Shown here: positions 8,676 to 51,995 of the stretch, piece after piece | Layout of the letters: every line of letters starts with the position of its first letter | Position numbering within the stretch: the first letter of the stretch is position 1 | Assembly: GCA_946611605.1 (NCBI GenBank) | Contig: CAMODU010000002.1 | Location: forward strand, 1 to 52,158 | Origin: an uncultured bacterium | GTDB lineage: Bacteria; Bacillota_I; Bacilli_A; RF39; UBA660 | Reading direction: 5' to 3' | Length of the DNA: 52,158 nucleotides | Notes under the pieces: model-generated | What the model saw: only the letters and a program-made list of their open reading frames with translations | Told to the model about the DNA's origin: nothing | Database searches by the model: none | Translations under genes and position numbers: made by a program

Positions 8676-9857
8676 ATGGCAATGACATGCTTTGAAGATT
8701 TAAAATGGAGAGGACTTGTTAAAGACATTAGTAGTCCTGAACTAGAAGACAAATTAAATAATGAACAATTAACATTCTATATTGGTACAGATCCAACAGC
8801 TGATTCTATGCATATAGGACATTTCTCATCATTCCTAATTGCAACAAGATTAGCTAAATATGGTCATAAACCAATACTTTTAGTAGGTGGAGCTACAGGA
8901 TTAATTGGAGATCCTAAACCATCAAATGAAAGACAAATGATTACTAAAGAACAAGTAGAACATAATGTAGAAGGATTAACAAAACAAGCTAAAGAAATAT
9001 TTGGTTTTGAAGTAGTTAATAATTATGATTGGATTAAGGATATATCTACTATAGATTTCTTAAGAGATTATGGTAAATATATAAATGTTAATTATATGTT
9101 AGATAAAGATATTATAAGTAGAAGACTAGAAAGTGGTATTACTTTCTGTGAATTTGCTTATACTATTCTACAAGGTTTAGACTTTGTTCATTTAAATAAA
9201 GCTAAAGGTGTTACATTACAAGTTGCAGGTTCAGATCAATGGGGAAATATTACAACTGGTATTGAATTAGCTAGAAAAAAAGAAGATATAGAATTATTTG
9301 GTATGACTATGCCTTTAGTTGTTGATGCTAATGGAGTTAAATTTGGTAAAACTGAAGGTAATGCTTTATGGTTAGATAAGAATAAAACATCTTCATATGA
9401 ACTATATCAATTCTTAATTAATTCCGATGATAAGAGTGTAATAGATTATCTTAAGAAATTAACATTCTTATCTAAAGAAGAAATAGAAAAAATTGAAGAA
9501 GAACATAATAAACACCCAGAATTAAGAATGGCTCAAAAAGTACTAGCCAAAGAAGTTATTACATTCTTACATGGTGAAGAAGAAGCTGAACAAGCAAGAA
9601 TAAAATCAGAAGCTTTATTTGGTGGTTCTACTGAAGACTTAGAAGCAACTCCTATTACTCCTGAATCAAGAAATATTCTTGATATCATGATGGCAGCTGA
9701 TTTAATACCATCAAAATCAGAAGGTAGAAGATTAGTTGAACAAGGTGGAGTATCTATTGATGATGATAAGATAACTGATCCTAAATTTGAAGTAACTAAG
9801 GATGAATTTGTTCTTCATAAGGGTAAGAAAAAAGTTGTTAAATTAGTAATTAAGTAG
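8676..9857 (+). CDS. tyrS: Tyrosine--tRNA ligase
   Basis: RBS is AAGAAGGA. Motifs: HIGH (DSMHIGHF), KMSKS equivalent KFGKTEG, GSDQWGNI, and a C-terminal S4-like domain (SKSEGRRLVEQGGVSIDD). Confidence 0.95.
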   Translation: MAMTCFEDLKWRGLVKDISSPELEDKLNNEQLTFYIGTDPTADSMHIGHFSSFLIATRLAKYGHKPILLVGGATGLIGDPKPSNERQMITKEQVEHNVEGLTKQAKEIFGFEVVNNYDWIKDISTIDFLRDYGKYINVNYMLDKDIISRRLESGITFCEFAYTILQGLDFVHLNKAKGVTLQVAGSDQWGNITTGIELARKKEDIELFGMTMPLVVDANGVKFGKTEGNALWLDKNKTSSYELYQFLINSDDKSVIDYLKKLTFLSKEEIEKIEEEHNKHPELRMAQKVLAKEVITFLHGEEEAEQARIKSEALFGGSTEDLEATPITPESRNILDIMMAADLIPSKSEGRRLVEQGGVSIDDDKITDPKFEVTKDEFVLHKGKKKVVKLVIK

Positions 9858-12974: not shown

Positions 12975-14750
12975 ATGAATAAAAATAAATATTTATTAGT
13001 ATTTATTCTTTTACTATGCCTAATTCCTAATGTAGCTAAAGCTACTGATTGGTGTGTTATCAATGGTACAACTGTTAGAGTAAGAGATGCTGCATCTACT
13101 TCAGGTAATAAATTAGGAACATATAATACAGGAGATAAGTTTGTATTAAAGACTAGACAAATATTTGCTGATAAAGGTGGAGGATGCGAATCAGGATATT
13201 GGTATCAAATAGATCATAATGGTGCAACTGGCTATGTTTGTACTGCATTTGCAATTATAGAATCTGATACACCTGTAGTTATTACTGATGAAGCAAAAAC
13301 ACAATGCGAATCTGAATTAAAATCTAAAGGCTTCCCTCAAGTATATTGGAACGCTTTATGTAATTTAAAAGCTAAATATCCAAATTGGGAATTTAATGCT
13401 ATAGATACTTTAATAGACTTTCCTTCTGCAGTAGCTGGTGAATCTTGTAAAGGCTCTATACGTGCATCTGAAACTAATATAAACAAAGGATTTACAGATT
13501 CTACATGTGGAAAAAAATATGATACAGGGTATACTGGAGCGTCATCTACTGCTACAGCATATTATATGAACCCTTTAAACTTCTTAAACGAAAAGAATAT
13601 TTTTATGTTTGAATCAAATTATACAAATAATAATCTATTAGGATATTATGCTAATGCATCGAAAAGTATAATATCTCCTTCAACTTATTTTGTTCAGTTT
13701 ATTCCAAATGTATATACTTATATAGCTAATGCGTCTAATGCGTCTAATGTGGCAGCTTCTGCTATATCTGCTCGTATAAAACAAGAAATGGGAAGTGGAG
13801 ATTTAGGAAAAACAGTAGCTCCAGATAATACAAGATTGTTTTCATGCTTGTCTGGTAATTATTCGACTAGATATCCAAATACTGTAGCTTCAATAGGTGA
13901 TGTGAATAATTATTATAATTTCTTTAATATAGCTGCAACCGATGGTTCGGATGTCACACAAAAAGCATTAATATATGCTAGAAATCATGGCTGGGGCGGA
14001 ACTGGTAATCAAGACAATGATAGACAAACAGCTGTAACAGGTGGTGCTCAGTGGATTTATAAATGGTATACAAATGCAGGCCAACAGACTATTTATTTTA
14101 ATAAATTTAATGTTAATCCTAAATCGTCGTCATCTAAATTTTCTCATCAATACATGACAAATGTGGATGCTCCATCCTCAGAATCTATACTTGTTTATAA
14201 TGGTTATTCAAGTTCAGGTGCTTTATCTGCTAATCACATATTTTATATTCCAGTATATAGTAATTTAGATGCTTCTATAAATAATACTCCAGGTGGTGCT
14301 ACAGGTGATACTAATAACTCTAATACAGGATTACAACCTTCAACAATGGTTGTATCTGCTGGTTTGAATATATCTGGTTCTGCTGTATTTGGAATTAAAA
14401 GTAATACGTCTATAGTTGATTTAAAAGGTAGAATACAATCTCAAGGTGGTACAATTAATATTTATTCCGGTAATAATTTAATAAATGATGGTATAGTTGG
14501 AACAGGCATGGTAATGAAAATTGCATCATCAACTGGTAATGCCGAATATTCTATTGTAATTAAAGGCGATACCTCAGGTGATGGGTTGGTTAATGCGTTG
14601 GATTTACTACAAATAAAAAAATCAATACTTGGGCAGAAAAAAATAGAAGGCGTTTATTATGCGGCTGCTGACACATCAAGTGATGGTACGGTTAATGCTT
14701 TAGATTTATTACAAGTTAAAAAGAGCTTATTAGGACAAAAGGAGTTGTAG
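12975..14750 (+). CDS. Secreted SH3b + glucosaminidase(GH73)-like peptidoglycan hydrolase with a C-terminal type-I dockerin
   Basis: Signal peptide is MNKNKYLLVFILLLCLIPNVAKA. The SH3b-like segment is VRVRDAASTSGNKLGTYNTGDKFVL...GYWYQIDHNGATGYV. GH73-like boxes are IKQEMGSG, NNYYNFFNI, GAQWIY and SHQYMTN. The C-terminal duplicated dockerin segment is GDTSGDGLVNALDLLQIKKSILG ... ADTSSDGTVNALDLLQVKKSLLG (nt 14565-14747). Confidence 0.7.
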   Translation: MNKNKYLLVFILLLCLIPNVAKATDWCVINGTTVRVRDAASTSGNKLGTYNTGDKFVLKTRQIFADKGGGCESGYWYQIDHNGATGYVCTAFAIIESDTPVVITDEAKTQCESELKSKGFPQVYWNALCNLKAKYPNWEFNAIDTLIDFPSAVAGESCKGSIRASETNINKGFTDSTCGKKYDTGYTGASSTATAYYMNPLNFLNEKNIFMFESNYTNNNLLGYYANASKSIISPSTYFVQFIPNVYTYIANASNASNVAASAISARIKQEMGSGDLGKTVAPDNTRLFSCLSGNYSTRYPNTVASIGDVNNYYNFFNIAATDGSDVTQKALIYARNHGWGGTGNQDNDRQTAVTGGAQWIYKWYTNAGQQTIYFNKFNVNPKSSSSKFSHQYMTNVDAPSSESILVYNGYSSSGALSANHIFYIPVYSNLDASINNTPGGATGDTNNSNTGLQPSTMVVSAGLNISGSAVFGIKSNTSIVDLKGRIQSQGGTINIYSGNNLINDGIVGTGMVMKIASSTGNAEYSIVIKGDTSGDGLVNALDLLQIKKSILGQKKIEGVYYAAADTSSDGTVNALDLLQVKKSLLGQKEL

Positions 14751-14753
14751 AAT

Positions 14754-16382
14754 GTGAAGAATTTAAAGAGATTAATAATATTAATGTTATTAATAATACC
14801 AGGTATAGCTTCAGCTGCATCTAGTAGTATATCTGTTAGTTCAGCAAATACAGGTGTTGTTGGTAACAATTTAAATGTAACTGTTACGGTATCTTCGTCA
14901 GCACCTTTAGGTTCATGGCAATTTACTGTATCATATGATAGAAGTTATTTAACATTAAGTAGTGTAAGTAATACAGATGATTGTGGAACTAGTGCAAACT
15001 GTGCTGGTAATGCTAATAATAGTTCTACTAAATCAAAATCCTATAATTTTACTTTTAAAGTGTTGAAATCAGGATCATCTACAATTAGAATAACATCAGC
15101 AGATGTATTTGGTTGGGATGAAAATAGAATGTCAGTTAATAATGGTTCTAGAACTATTACTTGTAAAACTCAAGCAGAAATTGAAGCATCATATTCTCCA
15201 AATGCATATCTTAAATCTATTACAGTAGGTGATTATACATTAGATCCTGCATTTGATAAAGAAACTAAAGAATATAATGTAGAAGTACCAAATGATGTAG
15301 AAAAGGTAACTGTATCAGCTACTAAAGAAGATGGAAATGCTACAATAACTGGTACAGGTGAAAAAGAATTACAAGAAGGAAATAATAAAATTGAAATAGT
15401 ATGTACTGCTCAAAAGGGAAATAGTTTAACATATATAGTTAATATTAATAGAAAAGAATTAAATCCTATTAAAGTAACTATAGATGGTAAAGAATTTGGT
15501 ATTGTTAGAAAGAAAGATTTATTACCTGAATTAATAGGTTTTAGTGAAGATACTACAACATATGAAGATACTGAAATACCTGCTTTATATAATGATGATT
15601 TAACATATAAATTAATAGGTGTTAAAGATGATGAAGGTAATGTATATACTTATCTTTATGATGAAGGTGCTAAAACTATAAGAGGTAGATATATTCAATT
15701 ATTATCTGGTGATTTAGCAATTACTCCTGGTAACTTTAATGAAAAGATTAAAGGATTTGAAACTAAGGAATTAGATTTAGATGGATTTAAAGTAGCATCT
15801 GTTGCTATATCAGATAAACAATATATTATAAAGGGTATTAATCTAGTTACTAAAGAAGAAGGAACTTATTTATATGATGTAGATACTAAGATGTTTATAC
15901 CATTTGATTTAACTAACATTTATAATATAAATAAAAAGATTAAAGTATATAAAATAGTTATTATTCTTTTCTGTGTAATAGTTCTTCTATTAGCAGGTTT
16001 AAATATTTTTAAGAAAGATAATAAGAAAGATAAAAAGAAGAAACCTATAATAGATGAATTTAAAGAAATTGAACCTGAAGAAATAAAAGTAGAAGAAATA
16101 AAAGAAGAACCTAAAGAAGAATTAAAGGTTGAAGAAGAAACTATTTCTTTAGATGATGAAGAAGATAAGAAGAAAAAGAAAAAAGAAGATAAGAGAAAGA
16201 AGAAAGCAGAAAAGAAAAGATTAAAAGAATTAGAAAGAGAAGAACAAGAGGAAGAAGTTGTTGAAGAAGAAGTTAAGGAAGAAAAGGTAGTCGATGATGA
16301 TGAAGTAGATGATCCTTTAAATGATGAAGATGATTTCATGGACTTCTGGGAAACAATGGAAATCAAAAAGATAAAGAAATAG
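14754..16382 (+). CDS. Membrane-anchored protein: cohesin-like domain, cadherin-like beta-sandwich domain, TM, highly charged cytoplasmic tail
   Basis: GTG start lies 3 nt after the upstream stop, with AAGGAG 9 nt upstream. Signal peptide is LIILMLLIIPGIASA. The cohesin-like segment is NLNVTVTVSSSAPLGSWQFTVSYDRSYLTLSSV...YNFTFKVLKSGSSTIRITS. The cadherin-like module is YLKSITVGDYTLDPAFDKETKEYNVEVPNDVEKVTVSA...YIVNINR. The TM is IVIILFCVIVLLLAGLNIF (residues 401-418), followed by a 124-aa K/E/D tail. Confidence 0.65.
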   Translation: MKNLKRLIILMLLIIPGIASAASSSISVSSANTGVVGNNLNVTVTVSSSAPLGSWQFTVSYDRSYLTLSSVSNTDDCGTSANCAGNANNSSTKSKSYNFTFKVLKSGSSTIRITSADVFGWDENRMSVNNGSRTITCKTQAEIEASYSPNAYLKSITVGDYTLDPAFDKETKEYNVEVPNDVEKVTVSATKEDGNATITGTGEKELQEGNNKIEIVCTAQKGNSLTYIVNINRKELNPIKVTIDGKEFGIVRKKDLLPELIGFSEDTTTYEDTEIPALYNDDLTYKLIGVKDDEGNVYTYLYDEGAKTIRGRYIQLLSGDLAITPGNFNEKIKGFETKELDLDGFKVASVAISDKQYIIKGINLVTKEEGTYLYDVDTKMFIPFDLTNIYNINKKIKVYKIVIILFCVIVLLLAGLNIFKKDNKKDKKKKPIIDEFKEIEPEEIKVEEIKEEPKEELKVEEETISLDDEEDKKKKKKEDKRKKKAEKKRLKELEREEQEEEVVEEEVKEEKVVDDDEVDDPLNDEDDFMDFWETMEIKKIKK

Positions 16383-47558: not shown

Positions 47559-48560
47559 ATGGCAAAGAAAATTGATACAAACGATAAAGCTTTAGAAGAA
47601 GTAATGGCTGAAATAGAAAAACAATTTGGTAAAGGTTCAATCATGAAGCTTTCTGAAGATACAAAAGTAGAAGTAGAAACTGTACCAACAGGATCATTAA
47701 GTTTAGATATAGCTTTAGGAGCAGGTGGATTTCCTAAAGGAAGAATTATAGAAGTATTTGGCCCTGAATCATCAGGTAAAACTACTATTGCACTTCAAGC
47801 AGTTGCTGAAGTACAAAAACAAGGAGGAAGAGCAGCATTTATTGATGCTGAACATGCACTTGATCCTGTATATGCAAAAGCATTAGGAGTTAATTTAGAT
47901 GAGTTATTATTATCTCAACCTGATACTGGAGAACAAGCATTAGAAATATGTGAAGCATTAGTTAGATCTGGTGCTGTACAAATTGTTGTAATAGATTCAG
48001 TTGCAGCATTAGTACCACAAGCAGAAATTGAAGGTGAGATGGGAGATTCTCATGTTGGTCTTCAAGCAAGATTAATGTCTCAAGCATTAAGAAAATTAGC
48101 TGGTATTATTAACAAAACTAATACTATAGCAATATTCATTAACCAATTAAGAGAAAAAGTAGGTATTATGTTTGGTAATCCTGAAACTACTACAGGTGGT
48201 AGAGCATTAAAGTTCTATGCATCAGTTAGATTAGATGTTAGACGTGGAGAACAAATTAAATTAGGAGATTCTGTAATTGGTAATAGAACTACTATTAAAG
48301 TAGTTAAAAATAAGGTTGCTCCTCCATTCAAAACAGCTACAGTTGATATGATGTATGGTGAAGGTGTATCTTATGAAGGTGAATTAGTAGATTTAGGTGC
48401 TGAAATAGGTGTACTTGAAAAATCTGGTGCTTGGTATTCTTACAATGGAGAAAAAATTGGTCAAGGTAAAGAAAATACTAAGATATTCTTAAAGAACAAT
48501 CCTGACATGGCTGCTGATATAGATAGAGCTATAAGACAACATTATAATATAGAAGGTTAA
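47559..48560 (+). CDS. recA: Recombinase RecA
   Basis: RBS is AAAGGAGAT. Boxes are Walker [30 protein letters not shown], and the L2 loop region [20 protein letters not shown]. Confidence 0.97.
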
Positions 48561-48575
48561 TAACCTTCTTTTTCT
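48551..48575 (+). terminator. Intrinsic terminator overlapping the recA stop
   Basis: AGAAGGTT (48551-48558) pairs with AACCTTCT (48562-48569), followed by a T-run. Confidence 0.7.
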
Positions 48576-48612
48576 TTACTAATAATAGGTAGGAGTTATA
48601 TAATAATTAGTT

Positions 48613-51417
48613 ATGAAGAACGATTATGCAAGATTTAAACAACTTACTTTTGATGTTCTTTTAGATGAATTATCTAATGACATTGATAATCTATATAAAT
48701 CATATAGTTTTCTTGACATCTCAAAAGAAGAGTTTAATAGTATAATAAATCCAGCCGTTCAAGAAGCTTTTTCTAAATATAATAATAAAGAAAAATTGGA
48801 TTATAAAACATTCTTTGTTAATGTGATAAAACATGAGATAAAGGTATTCTTTATTAAGTTTCAACAAAATGAAAGATATAGAGACGTAATAAATAATTAT
48901 GTAAAAGCTACATTAAAAAAAGCAAATAGTATAAATGATATTATACATGAAATGACTAAGTTCTCAAGATTTATAGCTGAAAGCCAAATTATGGTAGGCC
49001 CAGATGTTTTGACCTTCTTGATCGAAAATAACGATATTATCCACAATTATATGATAATGATATTTAACAAGTATCAGTCAAAAATAGAAGATGGGACTTA
49101 TATAGATATATTTGAAGATGTTACCTTAACATCATTAATTGAAACATATGCATCCATGAATGATATAGAAATTAAAATGGATTTGGATGTAGAAAATGTA
49201 AGTGTATATGTAAGTGATTCAGAAGATAAATCTTATACAGATTCAACTAAATTATATTTAAAGGAAATAGGTAAAATTCCTTTGTTAAAATTAGATGAAG
49301 AAGTTAGATATGGTTATAGAATGATGGAGGGAGATCCAATTGCTAAGAAGAAACTAGTTGAAGCAAATCTTAGATTAGTTGTATCTATTGCCAAAAGATA
49401 TGTAGGACGTGGTTTATTATTTCAAGATTTAATAGAAGAAGGTAATCTTGGATTAATGAAAGCAGTAGAAGCATTTGATGTACGAAAGGGATACAAGTTT
49501 TCAACATATGCAACATGGTGGATTAGACAAAGTATTACCCGTTCTATAGCTGACCATGGACGTAACATAAGAATACCTGTACATATGGTTGAAAAAGTAA
49601 ATAAGTTTAATCGTGTAGTAGCTGATATAGCAAAAAAACTAGGAAGAGAACCAACTAATGAAGATATTCAAGCGGCTACTGGACTATCTAGAGAAACTAT
49701 AGATTATTTATTTAAGTTAGGCGCCGATACGGTATCAATTCATACTCAAATAGGTGATGAAGAAGAATCAGAATTAATTGATTTTATACCTGATGATCAA
49801 CATGTTGTTGAAGATGCAGCCTTGTTGAATAAAATGTCAAGTGATATGAAAGAAGCATTACTTGAATCTAAACTAACTGAGAAAGAATTAAAAGTAATAA
49901 TATTAAGATTTGGATTAGATACAGGAACAGGTAGAACTCTTGAAGAAGTAGGTAAAATATTTAAAGTTACACGTGAAAGAATTAGGCAAATAGAAGCTAA
50001 AGCTTTAAGAAAATTAAAGAGTAGTCCTAAATTTAGAAATAAAATGAAAGGATATATAGATGAAGATTCTATTCCTGATGATGTATTAATTGAAAAGAAG
50101 AAGAAAACTAGAAAAAAAGGCGAGTTTTCTGATATGAAATTATTAAATGATTATAAACTAGATACCGTTGATTTTAATAGATCTGGAAAAGGAAGAAAAA
50201 AAGGTAAAGTAAGAGGAGATAAATACGAAGGTGATTTATATCAAGATGATAAACCTAGAGTATCATCTTATAAAAAAGTAAAACCTAAGTCAGAATCTTT
50301 AATACAAGTAGAAGTTAAAAAAGATATTAAAGATATTGTACTTGAAAACAAAACAAAAGAACCAAAACCTAAAACATATATTAGACGTGATATTGATATT
50401 ACTCCTGAAGTAATTGATGCATTAGATAAATGTAGTTTAAGTAATAATATGATGGCTGCATTTAAACTAATACATGGTATAGATGATGGTGTAAAAAAGA
50501 CATTAAGAGAAGTATCTAGTATCATGGGTATCTCTTATGAAAGAGTAAGACAGTTAAATAATAAAGCAATTGATAAAATAAATAATTATTTATCTAATAA
50601 AGATAAAGGGGATATTAAACCAGATATGGATTTAATAATAGATGAAGATATTAAAGAACTTGAAGATTCAAAAGAAGAATTAAAAGATATAGTTGATGAA
50701 ATTAACATGGTCAAATCTATAAGAGAAATACTTAAAGGAAAGAAAGAAGGAACAAGGATGGGAAGAAAGAAAAAGGAAGTAACAGAAGATATGCATAAAG
50801 TAATAGATGCTAAACCATCAAGAAAGAAGTTTGAGAATATATATACTTACTATGAAGCAACTCCTGAAATAATAGATGAAGCATTAACACATTTATCTTT
50901 AGAAGAATTACAATTATTAAAGAAGAAATTTGGTGGCAATTTTGAAAATCCAACATTAACTAAATTATCTAAAGAAGAAAATGCTAAAGTATATGGAAGT
51001 CTTATAAAAAAATTAGAAACTGCTATTAGAAAGATTCAATTAAAGAATGTAGTTCCTGAAAAGAAAGATAATATAGTTGAAATGCCAATTCAAAAAACAG
51101 AAGAACAACTACTTGATGAAGTAGAAGATAATATTCAAACTCATGAAGAAGAAGGATTATTTATTCCATTAGAATCTGATTATATGAGATATCTGTTATC
51201 ATATGCATATGATGAATTATATGATAAATTAACATTACAAGAAGGTTTAATGTTATCTTTAATGGTAGGTAAATATGATAATATAATGCATACTAACGAA
51301 GAAATTAAAGAATCACTTAATTTAGATGAATTAGGTTATTATGATGTATTTAGAAGTATTATTAATAAATATCAAGATGTAATCAACAATGTAAACAATC
51401 ATAACAAAACTAAATAA
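48613..51417 (+). CDS. sigA: Group-1 (SigA/RpoD-type) sigma factor with a long N-terminal region and a roughly 450-aa C-terminal extension
   Basis: Residues 210-470 are a complete SigA core. Region 1.2 is [16 protein letters not shown]. Region 2 is [42 protein letters not shown]. Region 3 is [13 protein letters not shown]. Region 4.2 is [30 protein letters not shown]. subtilis SigA would end about 15 aa later, but this ORF continues to residue 934. Confidence 0.85.
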
Positions 51418-51458
51418 TAAAGATAAAGTATTATATAATTATATTAGGAAGTGATATT

Positions 51459-51995
51459 ATGCTTAAATATCCTAAATTAAATGATAAAGCACACTATGAA
51501 TCGTTTCTAGGTGGAGATGCTACCAAGTTAGCTCAATTTAATACTTTATGGAATGATTATATAAGAGTAGATATTAATGATTATATTTCTAGATTTAATG
51601 CTTTAGAAGGAACAGGAGATGTAGTTTTATTAACTGCATTACAATCTGAAGTAGAAGCATCATTTAATTCTATGAAATCTTATCATGGTCACTTTGGAGA
51701 TATAAATGTTGAAAAAGCAGCAAATGATATGTATATGGAATTATCTAAAGTAAGATCAGCTGTTCAAAGTGAAATAAGAATACATACAAGAGTAGCAAAA
51801 ACATCTTTAGGAGATAAGATATTAAAAGCTAAGAAAGCAATGGGCAAAGCTAAACATGGAATTAATAAAGTAGTAGATGCATATGAAGCATTCTCAGCAC
51901 CTGCTAATGATATATTTGAAGGAGCCAATAAAGCTATTAACTCTGGTGGAGAAAATATATACGAAAAGATTGGTAACTTTGGTAAACGTAAATAA
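51459..51995 (+). CDS. Hypothetical protein (178 aa)
   Basis: RBS is GGAAGTGAT. No TM and no recognised motif. Confidence 0.55.
   Translation: MLKYPKLNDKAHYESFLGGDATKLAQFNTLWNDYIRVDINDYISRFNALEGTGDVVLLTALQSEVEASFNSMKSYHGHFGDINVEKAANDMYMELSKVRSAVQSEIRIHTRVAKTSLGDKILKAKKAMGKAKHGINKVVDAYEAFSAPANDIFEGANKAINSGGENIYEKIGNFGKRK

What the first reader, a model, noticed from the sequence alone, without database searches (positions are those of the whole stretch)
50023..51417. The SigA-type sigma factor carries a 450-aa C-terminal extension with additional region-4-like helix-turn-helix modules
The core (residues 210-470) is a complete primary-type sigma factor, and canonical SigA/RpoD proteins end about 15 aa after region 4.2. 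This ORF continues without interruption for another 450 or so residues. The extension begins with a Lys-rich linker. Residues about 597-660 read [48 protein letters not shown]. They mirror region 4 itself ([48 protein letters not shown]). Weaker repeats of the same pattern lie at about 748-810 ([15 protein letters not shown]...[24 protein letters not shown]) and about 855-925 ([18 protein letters not shown]...[13 protein letters not shown]). The N-terminal region is also long, at 209 aa. A housekeeping sigma with tandem extra sigma-4-like domains would be novel. It could act as a built-in decoy or autoinhibitor, a second DNA- or activator-contact surface, or a fused anti-sigma-like regulator.
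Basis: partly seen in the sequence, partly recalled or inferred. Interest (0 to 1): 0.7.

Follow-up and report, generated by a model that had tools for sequence, protein, structure and literature searches.

The report
Sigma factor with sigma-4-derived tail
A primary-like RNA polymerase sigma factor from an uncultured low-GC gut-type bacterium carries a real, conserved 460-residue tail built from three degenerating copies of its own promoter-binding domain; the tail belongs to a large unannotated protein family, and the gene is probably a fast-evolving second sigma rather than the housekeeping one.

Summary
ORF 48613-51417 (934 aa) is uninterrupted. It has sigma regions 1.2-4 at aa 210-469, followed by a 464-aa tail.

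The tail holds three region-4-type modules:
- sigma4' (aa ~597-660) passes the Pfam threshold and is 35% identical to the true region 4.
- Module A (aa ~743-812) derives from region 4, but its helix-turn-helix has collapsed.
- Module B (aa ~859-934) has the region-4 fold, with the DNA-contacting arginines replaced by acidic residues.

A+B is a conserved unit. A profile finds 438 protein clusters at E<=1e-10. The unit is fused behind two different sigma classes, stands alone, or carries up to about 17 A repeats. No Pfam, NCBIfam, PHROG or PADLOC model covers it.

Orthologues from independent assemblies, one in the same recA-sigma synteny, carry the tail but lack sigma4'. This is therefore not an assembly artefact.

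"Housekeeping" is doubtful:
- The family, defined by a unique N-terminal domain, forms its own clade (bootstrap 94/100).
- It co-occurs with a canonical dnaG-sigA operon in two genomes. In one of them A-B is a separate downstream gene.
- Its core is only 60% identical between organisms whose RecA is 96% identical.

Function is inferred only. The tail is most likely a tethered region-4 mimic or regulatory appendage.

The parts
48613..51417 (+). Whole ORF, 934 aa: N-domain, sigma core, then tail (sigma4', module A, module B)
48551..48604 (+). Terminator-like hairpin after recA (48551-48569) and promoter-like site (48575-48604) just upstream of the sigma ORF. These are consensus matches only.
48613..49173 (+). 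Family-specific N-terminal domain (aa 1-187). It is acidic (aa 1-205: net -13), has no Pfam or PDB match and no region 1.1.
49240..50019 (+). Sigma-70 core, regions 1.2, 2, 3 and 4 (aa 210-469). The authentic region 4 is aa 420-469 (nt 49870-50019), and its recognition helix [17 protein letters not shown] is identical to the primary-sigma consensus.
50038..50400 (+). Linker 1 (aa 476-596). It is Lys-rich (net +10) and contains the conserved motif [13 protein letters not shown] (aa 538-550). The region-4/tail junction is conserved in frame in orthologues.
50401..50592 (+). sigma4' (aa 597-660), an intact extra copy of region 4 that keeps E-R-x-R-Q in the recognition helix. It lies inside an ~88-aa segment (aa ~585-672, nt ~50365-50628) that all close orthologues lack.
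50593..50838 (+). Linker 2 (aa 661-742), a charged low-complexity stretch with a short conserved MVKSIR helix motif
50839..51048 (+). Module A (aa 743-812), derived from region 4. The 4.1 helix is retained, and the HTH is replaced by a loop plus one long helix. This is the unit repeated up to ~17 times in relatives.
51049..51186 (+). Linker 3 (aa 813-858), acidic (net -11) and predicted disordered
51187..51414 (+). Module B (aa 859-934), with the region-4 fold. It is acidic (net -4), its DNA-contact arginines are replaced, and it forms the C-terminal cap of the family.

Best explanation
Shown. The gene is real and encodes a member of an unannotated family of primary-like sigma-70 factors. The family is defined by a unique ~190-aa N-terminal domain in place of region 1.1. 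Its C-terminus is fused to a conserved accessory unit, 'A(n)-B'. Both tail modules descend from sigma region 4. B keeps the four-helix region-4 fold, but its recognition helix is charge-reversed ([10 protein letters not shown] becomes I-s-e-e-e-v-i-e-i-t). A keeps the 4.1 helix but has lost the helix-turn-helix. The window protein also has a third, intact region-4 copy (sigma4') that its closest orthologues lack. In one relative, A-B is a separate gene immediately downstream of the sigma, so the tail is a gene fusion of a sigma partner.

Inferred. The protein is probably a second, fast-evolving primary-like sigma (group-2-like) that reads sigmaA-type -10/-35 promoters through its unchanged regions 2.4 and 4.2. 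It is probably not the housekeeping sigma. The A-B tail most likely acts through protein-protein contacts as a tethered region-4 mimic. It would compete for, or occupy, the surfaces that region 4 normally uses: the beta-flap tip or region-4-directed regulators. That would tune holoenzyme formation or -35 use. The basic linkers, and possibly sigma4', could add DNA affinity upstream of the promoter. My probability for the mimic or regulatory mechanism specifically is about 0.35. For the structural and evolutionary statement it is about 0.9.
For: The ORF and its domains are defined.

Orthologues carry the tail:
- P0002, P0004, P0005, P0086 and P0128 all have N-domain, sigma core and A-B.
- The P0004 cluster has 8 members, all 804 aa, on separate contigs.
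- P0128 lies in the same relA..mraY-recA-sigma-ORF synteny as the window.

The family is large:
- A profile of A+B finds 883 cluster representatives at E<=1e-3 and 438 at E<=1e-10.
- Architectures include N-S-A(n)-B, SigE/K-like sigma + A-B, free-standing A-B, and arrays of up to ~17 A units.

The modules are homologous to region 4.

Structure.

Charge: region 4 is +8, sigma4' +1, A +1, linker 3 -11 and B -4. Family medians are A +2 and B -3.

Split version: in L004 a 480-aa sigma aligns end to end with window aa 1-482 (E=5e-104) and is followed by a separate 206-aa A-B gene.

Paralogue status:
- A canonical dnaG-sigA-trmK operon occurs in the same loci, L004 and L013.
- The family forms its own clade in the core tree, bootstrap 94/100.
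- The sigma core is 60% identical where RecA is 96% and MraY 84% identical.

Region-4 duplication recurs: the two copies in L013 are 71% identical, and P0141 has an extra copy.
Against: - No experiment or complex model bears on what the tail binds. The prediction tool returns no inter-domain confidence, and no multimer prediction was possible.
- The window's core is closer to canonical SigA (mean 60% identity) than to most members of its own clade (mean 48%). It keeps every promoter-recognition residue I could read (and direct reading). It could therefore still serve as the main sigma in this lineage.
- The rest of the genome could not be searched for a dnaG-sigA operon because the genome scans were exhausted.
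- Neighbour-joining monophyly of fast-evolving sequences can be inflated by long-branch attraction.
- Some free-standing A-B genes are not next to a sigma gene (L005). The partner relationship is therefore not universal.
Confidence: 0.55

Rival explanations
1. One reading: this is the cell's only housekeeping SigA. In this lineage it has acquired the tail as a built-in decoy or autoinhibitor.
For: Regions 2.4, 3.0 and 4.2 keep the primary-sigma recognition residues (direct reading). The best database matches outside the family are canonical SigA proteins at 56-61% identity. The window's core is closer to canonical SigA than to most family members. There is no other sigma in the 52-kb window. 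The gene lies among housekeeping genes.
Against: - There is no region 1.1, and all RpoD equivalog cut-offs are missed.
- The gene is not next to dnaG.
- The family clade is separate from canonical SigA, bootstrap 94/100.
- Two family-bearing genomes also have a canonical dnaG-sigA operon.
- The core is only 60% identical between positional orthologues with 96% identical RecA. That is unlike a housekeeping sigma.
Confidence: 0.25
2. The tail is a DNA-contacting arm. sigma4' would read a second -35-like element. The Lys-rich linkers and weakly basic A modules would hold upstream AT-rich DNA non-specifically. Together they would extend promoter recognition, like an UP-element contact.
For: sigma4' keeps 4 of the 5 base-contacting positions (S-Y-E-R-V-R-Q against T-R-E-R-I-R-Q, direct reading). 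The residue roles come from my knowledge of the Taq region 4/-35 structure 1KU7. Linker 1 has net charge +10, and A modules have a family median of +2. The C-terminus of region 4 sits near upstream DNA in holoenzyme structures (established knowledge).
Against: sigma4' is absent from all close orthologues, so it cannot be the conserved function. Module B and linker 3 are acidic, and B's recognition helix is charge-reversed. Module A has no HTH.
Confidence: 0.25
3. The tail is a multivalent scaffold. Variable numbers of A modules separated by disordered charged linkers would cluster RNA polymerase or recruit an unknown partner. Copy number would set the valency.
For: A copy number ranges from 1 to ~17 between relatives. 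Linkers are low-complexity and predicted disordered.
Against: No partner is known, and there is no conserved neighbouring gene. The window protein has only one A.
Confidence: 0.1
4. Artefact: two adjacent genes (a sigma gene and an A-B gene) were joined by a sequencing or assembly error that removed a stop codon.
For: In one relative (L004) the two parts are separate genes.
Against: The fused form occurs in dozens of 50%-identity clusters. It recurs at identical length on separate contigs (8 x 804 aa; 10 x 1693 aa). The junction and linker are conserved in frame across orthologues. A positional orthologue is also fused.
Confidence: 0.02

Closest known systems
Primary-like (group 2) sigma-70 factors, e.g. 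cyanobacterial SigB-E and actinobacterial HrdA-D (from my own knowledge)
   Same: They have regions 1.2, 2, 3 and 4 with primary-type -10/-35 recognition residues. In relatives the family coexists with a canonical primary sigma. They evolve faster than the primary sigma.
   Different: Here a unique ~190-aa N-terminal domain replaces region 1.1. There is also a 300-1200-aa C-terminal tail of region-4-derived modules. Known group 1 and 2 sigmas end about 10-15 aa after region 4.2.
ECF sigma factors with fused C-terminal regulatory extensions (groups ECF41, ECF42 and others; from my own knowledge, literature tools unavailable)
   Same: A domain fused behind region 4 takes the place of a separately encoded regulator. 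Here too the fused and split forms both exist.
   Different: ECF sigmas have only sigma2 and sigma4, and their extensions are SnoaL-like, TPR and similar folds. Here the sigma is group-1-like or SigE/K-like, and the extension is made of duplicated, degenerate region-4 domains.
Sigma-70 region 4 domain (Pfam PF04545; structures 1KU7, 1RIO, 6ONU)
   Same: sigma4' passes the Pfam cut-off. Module B has the same fold (TM 0.66-0.76) and aligns in register. Module A retains the 4.1 helix.
   Different: In B the DNA-contact arginines are replaced by Glu or hydrophobic residues and the net charge is negative. A lacks the helix-turn-helix (TM 0.3-0.47 to region 4).
Factors that act at the region 4 / beta-flap interface (T4 AsiA, E. 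coli Rsd) and the acidic autoinhibitory region 1.1 (from my own knowledge)
   Same: These are possible functional analogues. They regulate by occupying or masking region-4 surfaces, or by acidic mimicry.
   Different: The folds are unrelated. No interaction has been tested here.

Membership tests
Sigma-70 family | Regions 2 and 4 are present (here also 1.2 and 3) | tested here: met
   Pfam r1.2, r2, r3 and r4 all score above their cut-offs.
Group 1 primary sigma (RpoD/SigA) | Region 1.1 (PF03979) at the N-terminus | tested here: not met
   No PF03979 hit in aa 1-209. The canonical SigA proteins in L004 and L013 have it.
Group 1 primary sigma (RpoD/SigA) | Score above a curated NCBIfam RpoD equivalog cut-off | tested here: not met
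   PRK09210 scores 376 bits against a 572-bit cut-off. RpoD_Cterm scores 330 against 354.
Group 1 primary sigma (RpoD/SigA) | Primary-type promoter-recognition residues in regions 2.4, 3.0 and 4.2 | tested here: met
   Direct reading of [26 protein letters not shown] and [17 protein letters not shown]. Residue roles are from established knowledge.
Group 1 primary sigma (RpoD/SigA) | Groups with canonical SigA in a core phylogeny; dnaG-sigA operon context in Firmicutes | tested here: not met
   The N-domain family (55 sequences) separates from 38 canonical SigA sequences, bootstrap 94/100. The gene follows recA, not dnaG.
Group 1 primary sigma (RpoD/SigA) | It is the sole or essential housekeeping sigma of the genome | not testable with these tools
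   Only 52 kb of the genome is available and the genome-collection scans are exhausted.
Group 2 (primary-like, non-essential) sigma | Coexists with a separate primary sigma in the same genome | tested here: inconclusive
   This is shown for relatives L004 and L013 but not for the window's own genome.
ECF sigma with C-terminal extension | Only sigma2 and sigma4, with no regions 1.2 or 3 | tested here: not met
   Regions 1.2 and 3 are present.
Sigma70_r4 domain (PF04545): sigma4' | Passes the Pfam gathering score | tested here: met
   28.7 and 29.7 bits against 24.1. 35% identity to the protein's own region 4, E=5e-12.
Sigma70_r4 domain (PF04545): module B | Region-4 sequence profile and four-helix fold with an HTH | tested here: met
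   There is no Pfam hit for the window copy. However, the family profile matches PDB SigA region 4 at E=1.7e-11. Foldseek gives probability 1.0 and TM 0.66-0.76. The DNA-contact residues are not conserved.
Sigma70_r4 domain (PF04545): module A | Region-4 fold with an HTH | tested here: not met
   Only profile positions 1-22 (region 4.1) match. hhalign gives 80% probability. The model shows a loop plus one long helix in place of the HTH. All top-50 Foldseek hits are region 4, but at TM 0.3-0.47.
Anti-sigma factors | Anti-sigma domain or another known anti-sigma fold | tested here: not met
   The tail has no Pfam, NCBIfam or PADLOC hit other than sigma region 4. Fold search returns only sigma factors.

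The most novel reading that the evidence does not exclude
A(n)-B is a previously undescribed, widespread class of sigma-tethered (or free) region-4 mimics in uncultured low-GC gut Bacilli. Repeated duplication of a sigma factor's own DNA-binding domain, followed by loss of DNA contacts, would have produced a modular regulator. That regulator would control RNA polymerase through the beta-flap/region-4 docking site. The window protein, with authentic region 4, intact sigma4', collapsed A and charge-reversed B, would capture successive stages of this process in one polypeptide.
Probability: 0.3. Interest if true: 0.8.

Novelty: new variant of a known kind. Interest (0 to 1): 0.6.

Why it matters
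As far as I know, group 1 and 2 sigma factors are not known to carry C-terminal domains. Region 4 normally ends the protein, right at the beta-flap and the -35 element. Here hundreds of protein clusters have region-4-derived modules attached to, or encoded next to, two different sigma classes. That would be a new way of regulating or extending sigma function. It is also a clear case of a DNA-binding domain being recycled into a non-DNA-binding module. The family is absent from Pfam, NCBIfam, PHROGs and PADLOC, so these proteins are currently annotated simply as RpoD/SigA. In these lineages that annotation may wrongly assign the housekeeping sigma.

Tried and rejected
- The word-indexed protein search with the tail alone found nothing. 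With an A-B profile it found only 9 proteins, because low-complexity words swamp the prefilter. The exhaustive profile search was what revealed the family.
- The genome-collection scan with the single N-domain found nothing. The 6-sequence alignment was too diverse. A 4-sequence alignment found one MAG, 'uncultured Bacillales bacterium' CAMOID01.
- tblastn of a free-standing A-B protein against phage and plasmid records gave no match. A scan of IMG/VR gave none. Fold search against viral models returned only weak sigma-factor matches. A mobile-element or phage origin is therefore rejected.
- PHROGs and PADLOC gave no meaningful hits; the one marginal PHROG match was of unknown function. The NCBIfam MzaA (defence sigma) hit covers only the shared core and is far below its cut-off.
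- The exact look-up of the window protein found it not on record. Cluster look-ups returned no names.
- Repeats at the DNA level give no evidence of a recent duplication. The only trace is a 19-nt, 89%-identical in-frame match between the starts of sigma4' and module A (50401 and 50860).
- I considered that A-B might be a degenerate two-domain mini-sigma (sigma2-like A plus sigma4-like B). I rejected this because A matches region 4.1 by sequence and region 4 by fold search, not sigma2.
- Literature search and paper reading failed on every attempt. Novelty therefore rests on the curated libraries and on my own knowledge.
Full report
**The observation**

The window is a 27% GC chromosome segment, with almost all genes on the + strand. 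It carries ordinary bacterial housekeeping genes: polA, nrdD, ezrA, relA, tyrS, mraY and recA. Directly after recA there is a terminator-like hairpin and a promoter-like site. Then comes one uninterrupted ORF, 48613-51417, of 934 aa ending in TAA.

Pfam finds sigma-70 regions 1.2 (aa 210-242), 2 (248-317), 3 (327-397) and 4 (420-469). It also finds a second region-4 stretch. The finding's coordinates (50023-51417) correspond to aa 471-934, a 464-aa tail.

**The three tail modules**

sigma4' (aa ~597-660):
- It passes the Pfam gathering score when scanned without the core (28.7 and 29.7 bits against 24.1).
- It is 35% identical to the protein's own region 4 over 69 aa (E=5e-12).
- Its recognition helix reads S-Y-E-R-V-R-Q where primary sigmas have T-R-E-R-I-R-Q. 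It therefore keeps four of the five positions that contact -35 bases in the Taq region 4/DNA structure (the residue roles are from my own knowledge).
- In my local set its best matches are the authentic region 4 of family members, at about 28 bits. That fits an old intragenic duplicate.

- A 48-sequence profile of A+B matches region 4 of Thermus SigA in PDB at E=1.7e-11. The match covers exactly module B and is in register.
- The B model and the sigma-core model hit each other's targets in many proteins.
- AlphaFold2 with that alignment gives pLDDT ~96 for both modules and a disordered linker.
- All top Foldseek PDB matches are sigma factors. Isolated region-4 structures (1KU7, 1RIO, 6ONU) match B with probability 1.0, TM 0.66-0.76 and rmsd 2.4-3.4 A.
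- Module A matches Pfam region 4 only over positions 1-22, the 4.1 helix. A 48-sequence A profile aligns to region 4 with hhalign probability 80%, E=1.3e-5.
- Modelled alone, A shows the 4.1 helix, then a loop and one long helix where the helix-turn-helix should be. Its 50 best Foldseek hits are all region 4, but at TM 0.3-0.47.
- So B is a true region-4 fold, and A is a region-4 derivative that has lost the HTH.

Charge separates the copies:

| Segment | Net charge |
|---|---|
| Authentic region 4 | +8 |
| sigma4' | +1 |
| Module A | +1 |
| Linker 3 | -11 |
| Module B | -4 |

Family medians are A +2 and B -3. In the B consensus, the helix equivalent to [10 protein letters not shown] reads I-s-e-e-e-v-i-e-i-t. 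B therefore cannot bind DNA the way region 4 does.

**Not an artefact, and not unique**

The closest database relatives all share the N-terminal domain, the core and an A-B tail. They are P0002 (813 aa), P0004 (804 aa), P0005 (841 aa) and P0086 (771 aa). The junction after region 4 and a linker motif ([13 protein letters not shown]) are conserved in frame. The P0004 cluster has eight members, all 804 aa, on separate contigs. A 1693-aa relative recurs ten times at full length.

P0128 (821 aa) lies in the same relA...mraY-recA-sigma-small ORF synteny as the window.

None of these relatives has the ~88-aa segment that holds sigma4'. sigma4' is therefore a lineage-specific addition.

An exhaustive profile search with A+B finds 883 cluster representatives at E<=1e-3, 438 at E<=1e-10 and 58 at E<=1e-30. 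I scanned the best 149 locally with my own models. They fall into these architectures:
- N-domain + primary-like core + A(1-12) + B;
- a ~240-aa SigE/SigK-like sigma + A-B (NCBIfam);
- free-standing A-B proteins of 200-290 aa;
- arrays of up to ~17 A units.

No Pfam, NCBIfam, PHROG or PADLOC family covers A or B. There are no phage, plasmid or IMG/VR matches.

Extra intact region-4 copies recur in the family. The L013 protein has a tandem duplicate that is 71% identical, and P0141 has another. This recurrence fits the A and B modules having arisen by duplication and decay of region 4. The window protein shows all stages in one chain.

**Fusion of a partner gene, and the housekeeping question**

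In locus L004 a 480-aa sigma aligns end to end with window aa 1-482, N-domain included (37% identity, E=5e-104). It stops right after region 4. A separate 206-aa A-B gene follows about 120 nt downstream. The same locus holds proS-dnaG-sigA(362 aa, with region 1.1)-trmK about 1.4 kb upstream. Locus L013 has the same dnaG-sigA(366 aa)-trmK arrangement, followed by the fused 852-aa form.

A neighbour-joining tree of 259 core columns separates the 55 N-domain sigmas from 38 canonical SigA proteins, including those two, with 94/100 bootstrap support.

The window protein has no region 1.1 and misses every curated RpoD cut-off.

Between the window and its positional orthologue L031, identities are as follows:

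| Protein or segment | Identity |
|---|---|
| RecA | 96% |
| MraY | 84% |
| Hsp20 | 82% |
| Sigma core | 60% |
| Sigma N-domain | 41% |
| Sigma tail | 34% |

A housekeeping sigma would not normally diverge that much faster than its neighbours (inference).

Against this, the window's core is closer to canonical SigA (mean 60%) than to most of its own clade (mean 48%). Its promoter-recognition helices are unchanged. I could not search the rest of the genome. I put 'separate canonical sigA exists' at roughly 0.65-0.75.

**Mechanism (inferred)**

The unchanged regions 2.4, 3.0 and 4.2 imply recognition of sigmaA-type promoters. The A-B unit is attached to, or sometimes encoded next to, two unrelated sigma classes. 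That argues it works with sigma factors in general.

It emerges from the C-terminus of region 4, which in holoenzyme structures sits on the beta-flap tip beside the -35 element and upstream DNA (established knowledge). B keeps the region-4 fold but reverses the charge of the DNA-binding helix, and A has lost the HTH. Sequence-specific DNA reading by the conserved part of the tail is therefore unlikely.

The most economical reading is a tethered region-4 mimic or regulatory appendage. It would compete for or occupy region-4 docking surfaces, or bind region-4-directed regulators. The basic linkers, and sigma4' in this protein only, could add DNA affinity. This step is unsupported by any direct test. 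The rival mechanisms (DNA arm, multivalent scaffold) are listed with their refutation tests.

**Comparison with known systems**

The core behaves like a group 2 (primary-like) sigma. Fusing a regulator behind region 4 recalls ECF sigmas with C-terminal extensions. However, both the sigma class and the extension folds differ. I know of no group 1 or 2 sigma with C-terminal domains, nor of tails made of region-4 repeats.

The literature tools failed on all seven attempts. The novelty claim therefore rests on the curated libraries and my own knowledge.

**Verdict**

- It is a new variant of a known kind.
- Interest is moderate to high, limited by the lack of any functional test and by the uncultured hosts.

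Noticed in passing
window 12975-16382: Two adjacent ORFs carry a type I dockerin (PF00404, with SH3_3) and a cohesin (PF00963, with a cadherin-like domain). These are cellulosome-type assembly modules in a 27% GC Bacilli-like chromosome.
   Followed up: no
window 1-52158: There is no tRNA gene. No Rfam family reaches its gathering score in 52 kb, and there is not even a T-box leader upstream of tyrS at 8676.
   Followed up: no
window 47559-51995 vs L031 8940-13051: Divergence between positional orthologues is extremely uneven. RecA is 96% identical, MraY 84% and Hsp20 82%. The sigma core is only 60%, its N-domain 41%, its tail 34%, and the downstream 178-aa ORF 39%.
   Followed up: partly
window 51459-51995: A 178-aa ORF lies directly downstream of the sigma. 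It has no Pfam or PHROG family but is conserved in synteny in L031 (39% identity, E=9e-46).
   Followed up: partly
window 50224-50262 (aa 538-550): A short motif, [13 protein letters not shown], sits inside the Lys-rich linker. It is conserved in P0001-P0004 although the surrounding linker is not.
   Followed up: no
L013 4153-6711: The family member next to a canonical dnaG-sigA operon has a tandem duplication of region 4 whose copies are 71% identical (E=1e-48). Pfam reports two r4 stretches.
   Followed up: yes
L006 1902-3235: A sigma2-only ORF (107 aa) overlaps by 4 nt an ORF encoding region 4 + A + B (337 aa). This is either a genuinely split sigma or a frameshift in the assembly.
   Followed up: no
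P0125 aa 42-63 (module A): The NCBIfam domain NF045770 (MG284/MPN403 family C-terminal domain, Mycoplasma) gives a sub-threshold hit to module A (27 bits against a 37.3-bit cut-off). This is a possible distant relative in Mollicutes.
   Followed up: no
L002 11148-16574 and L033 14728-20154: Next to the P0086/P0142-type sigma lies a cluster with CarS-like CDP-alcohol synthase, CDP-OH phosphotransferase, PS decarboxylase, a UbiA prenyltransferase and PPDK_N/Rph-type proteins. This is an unusual lipid-gene set for a Bacilli-like genome.
   Followed up: no
P0006-P0009 (database hits): Several high-scoring 'sigma' entries of 530-700 aa contain internally repeated blocks of the whole sigA core. They look like assembly chimeras rather than real long sigmas.
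   Followed up: no
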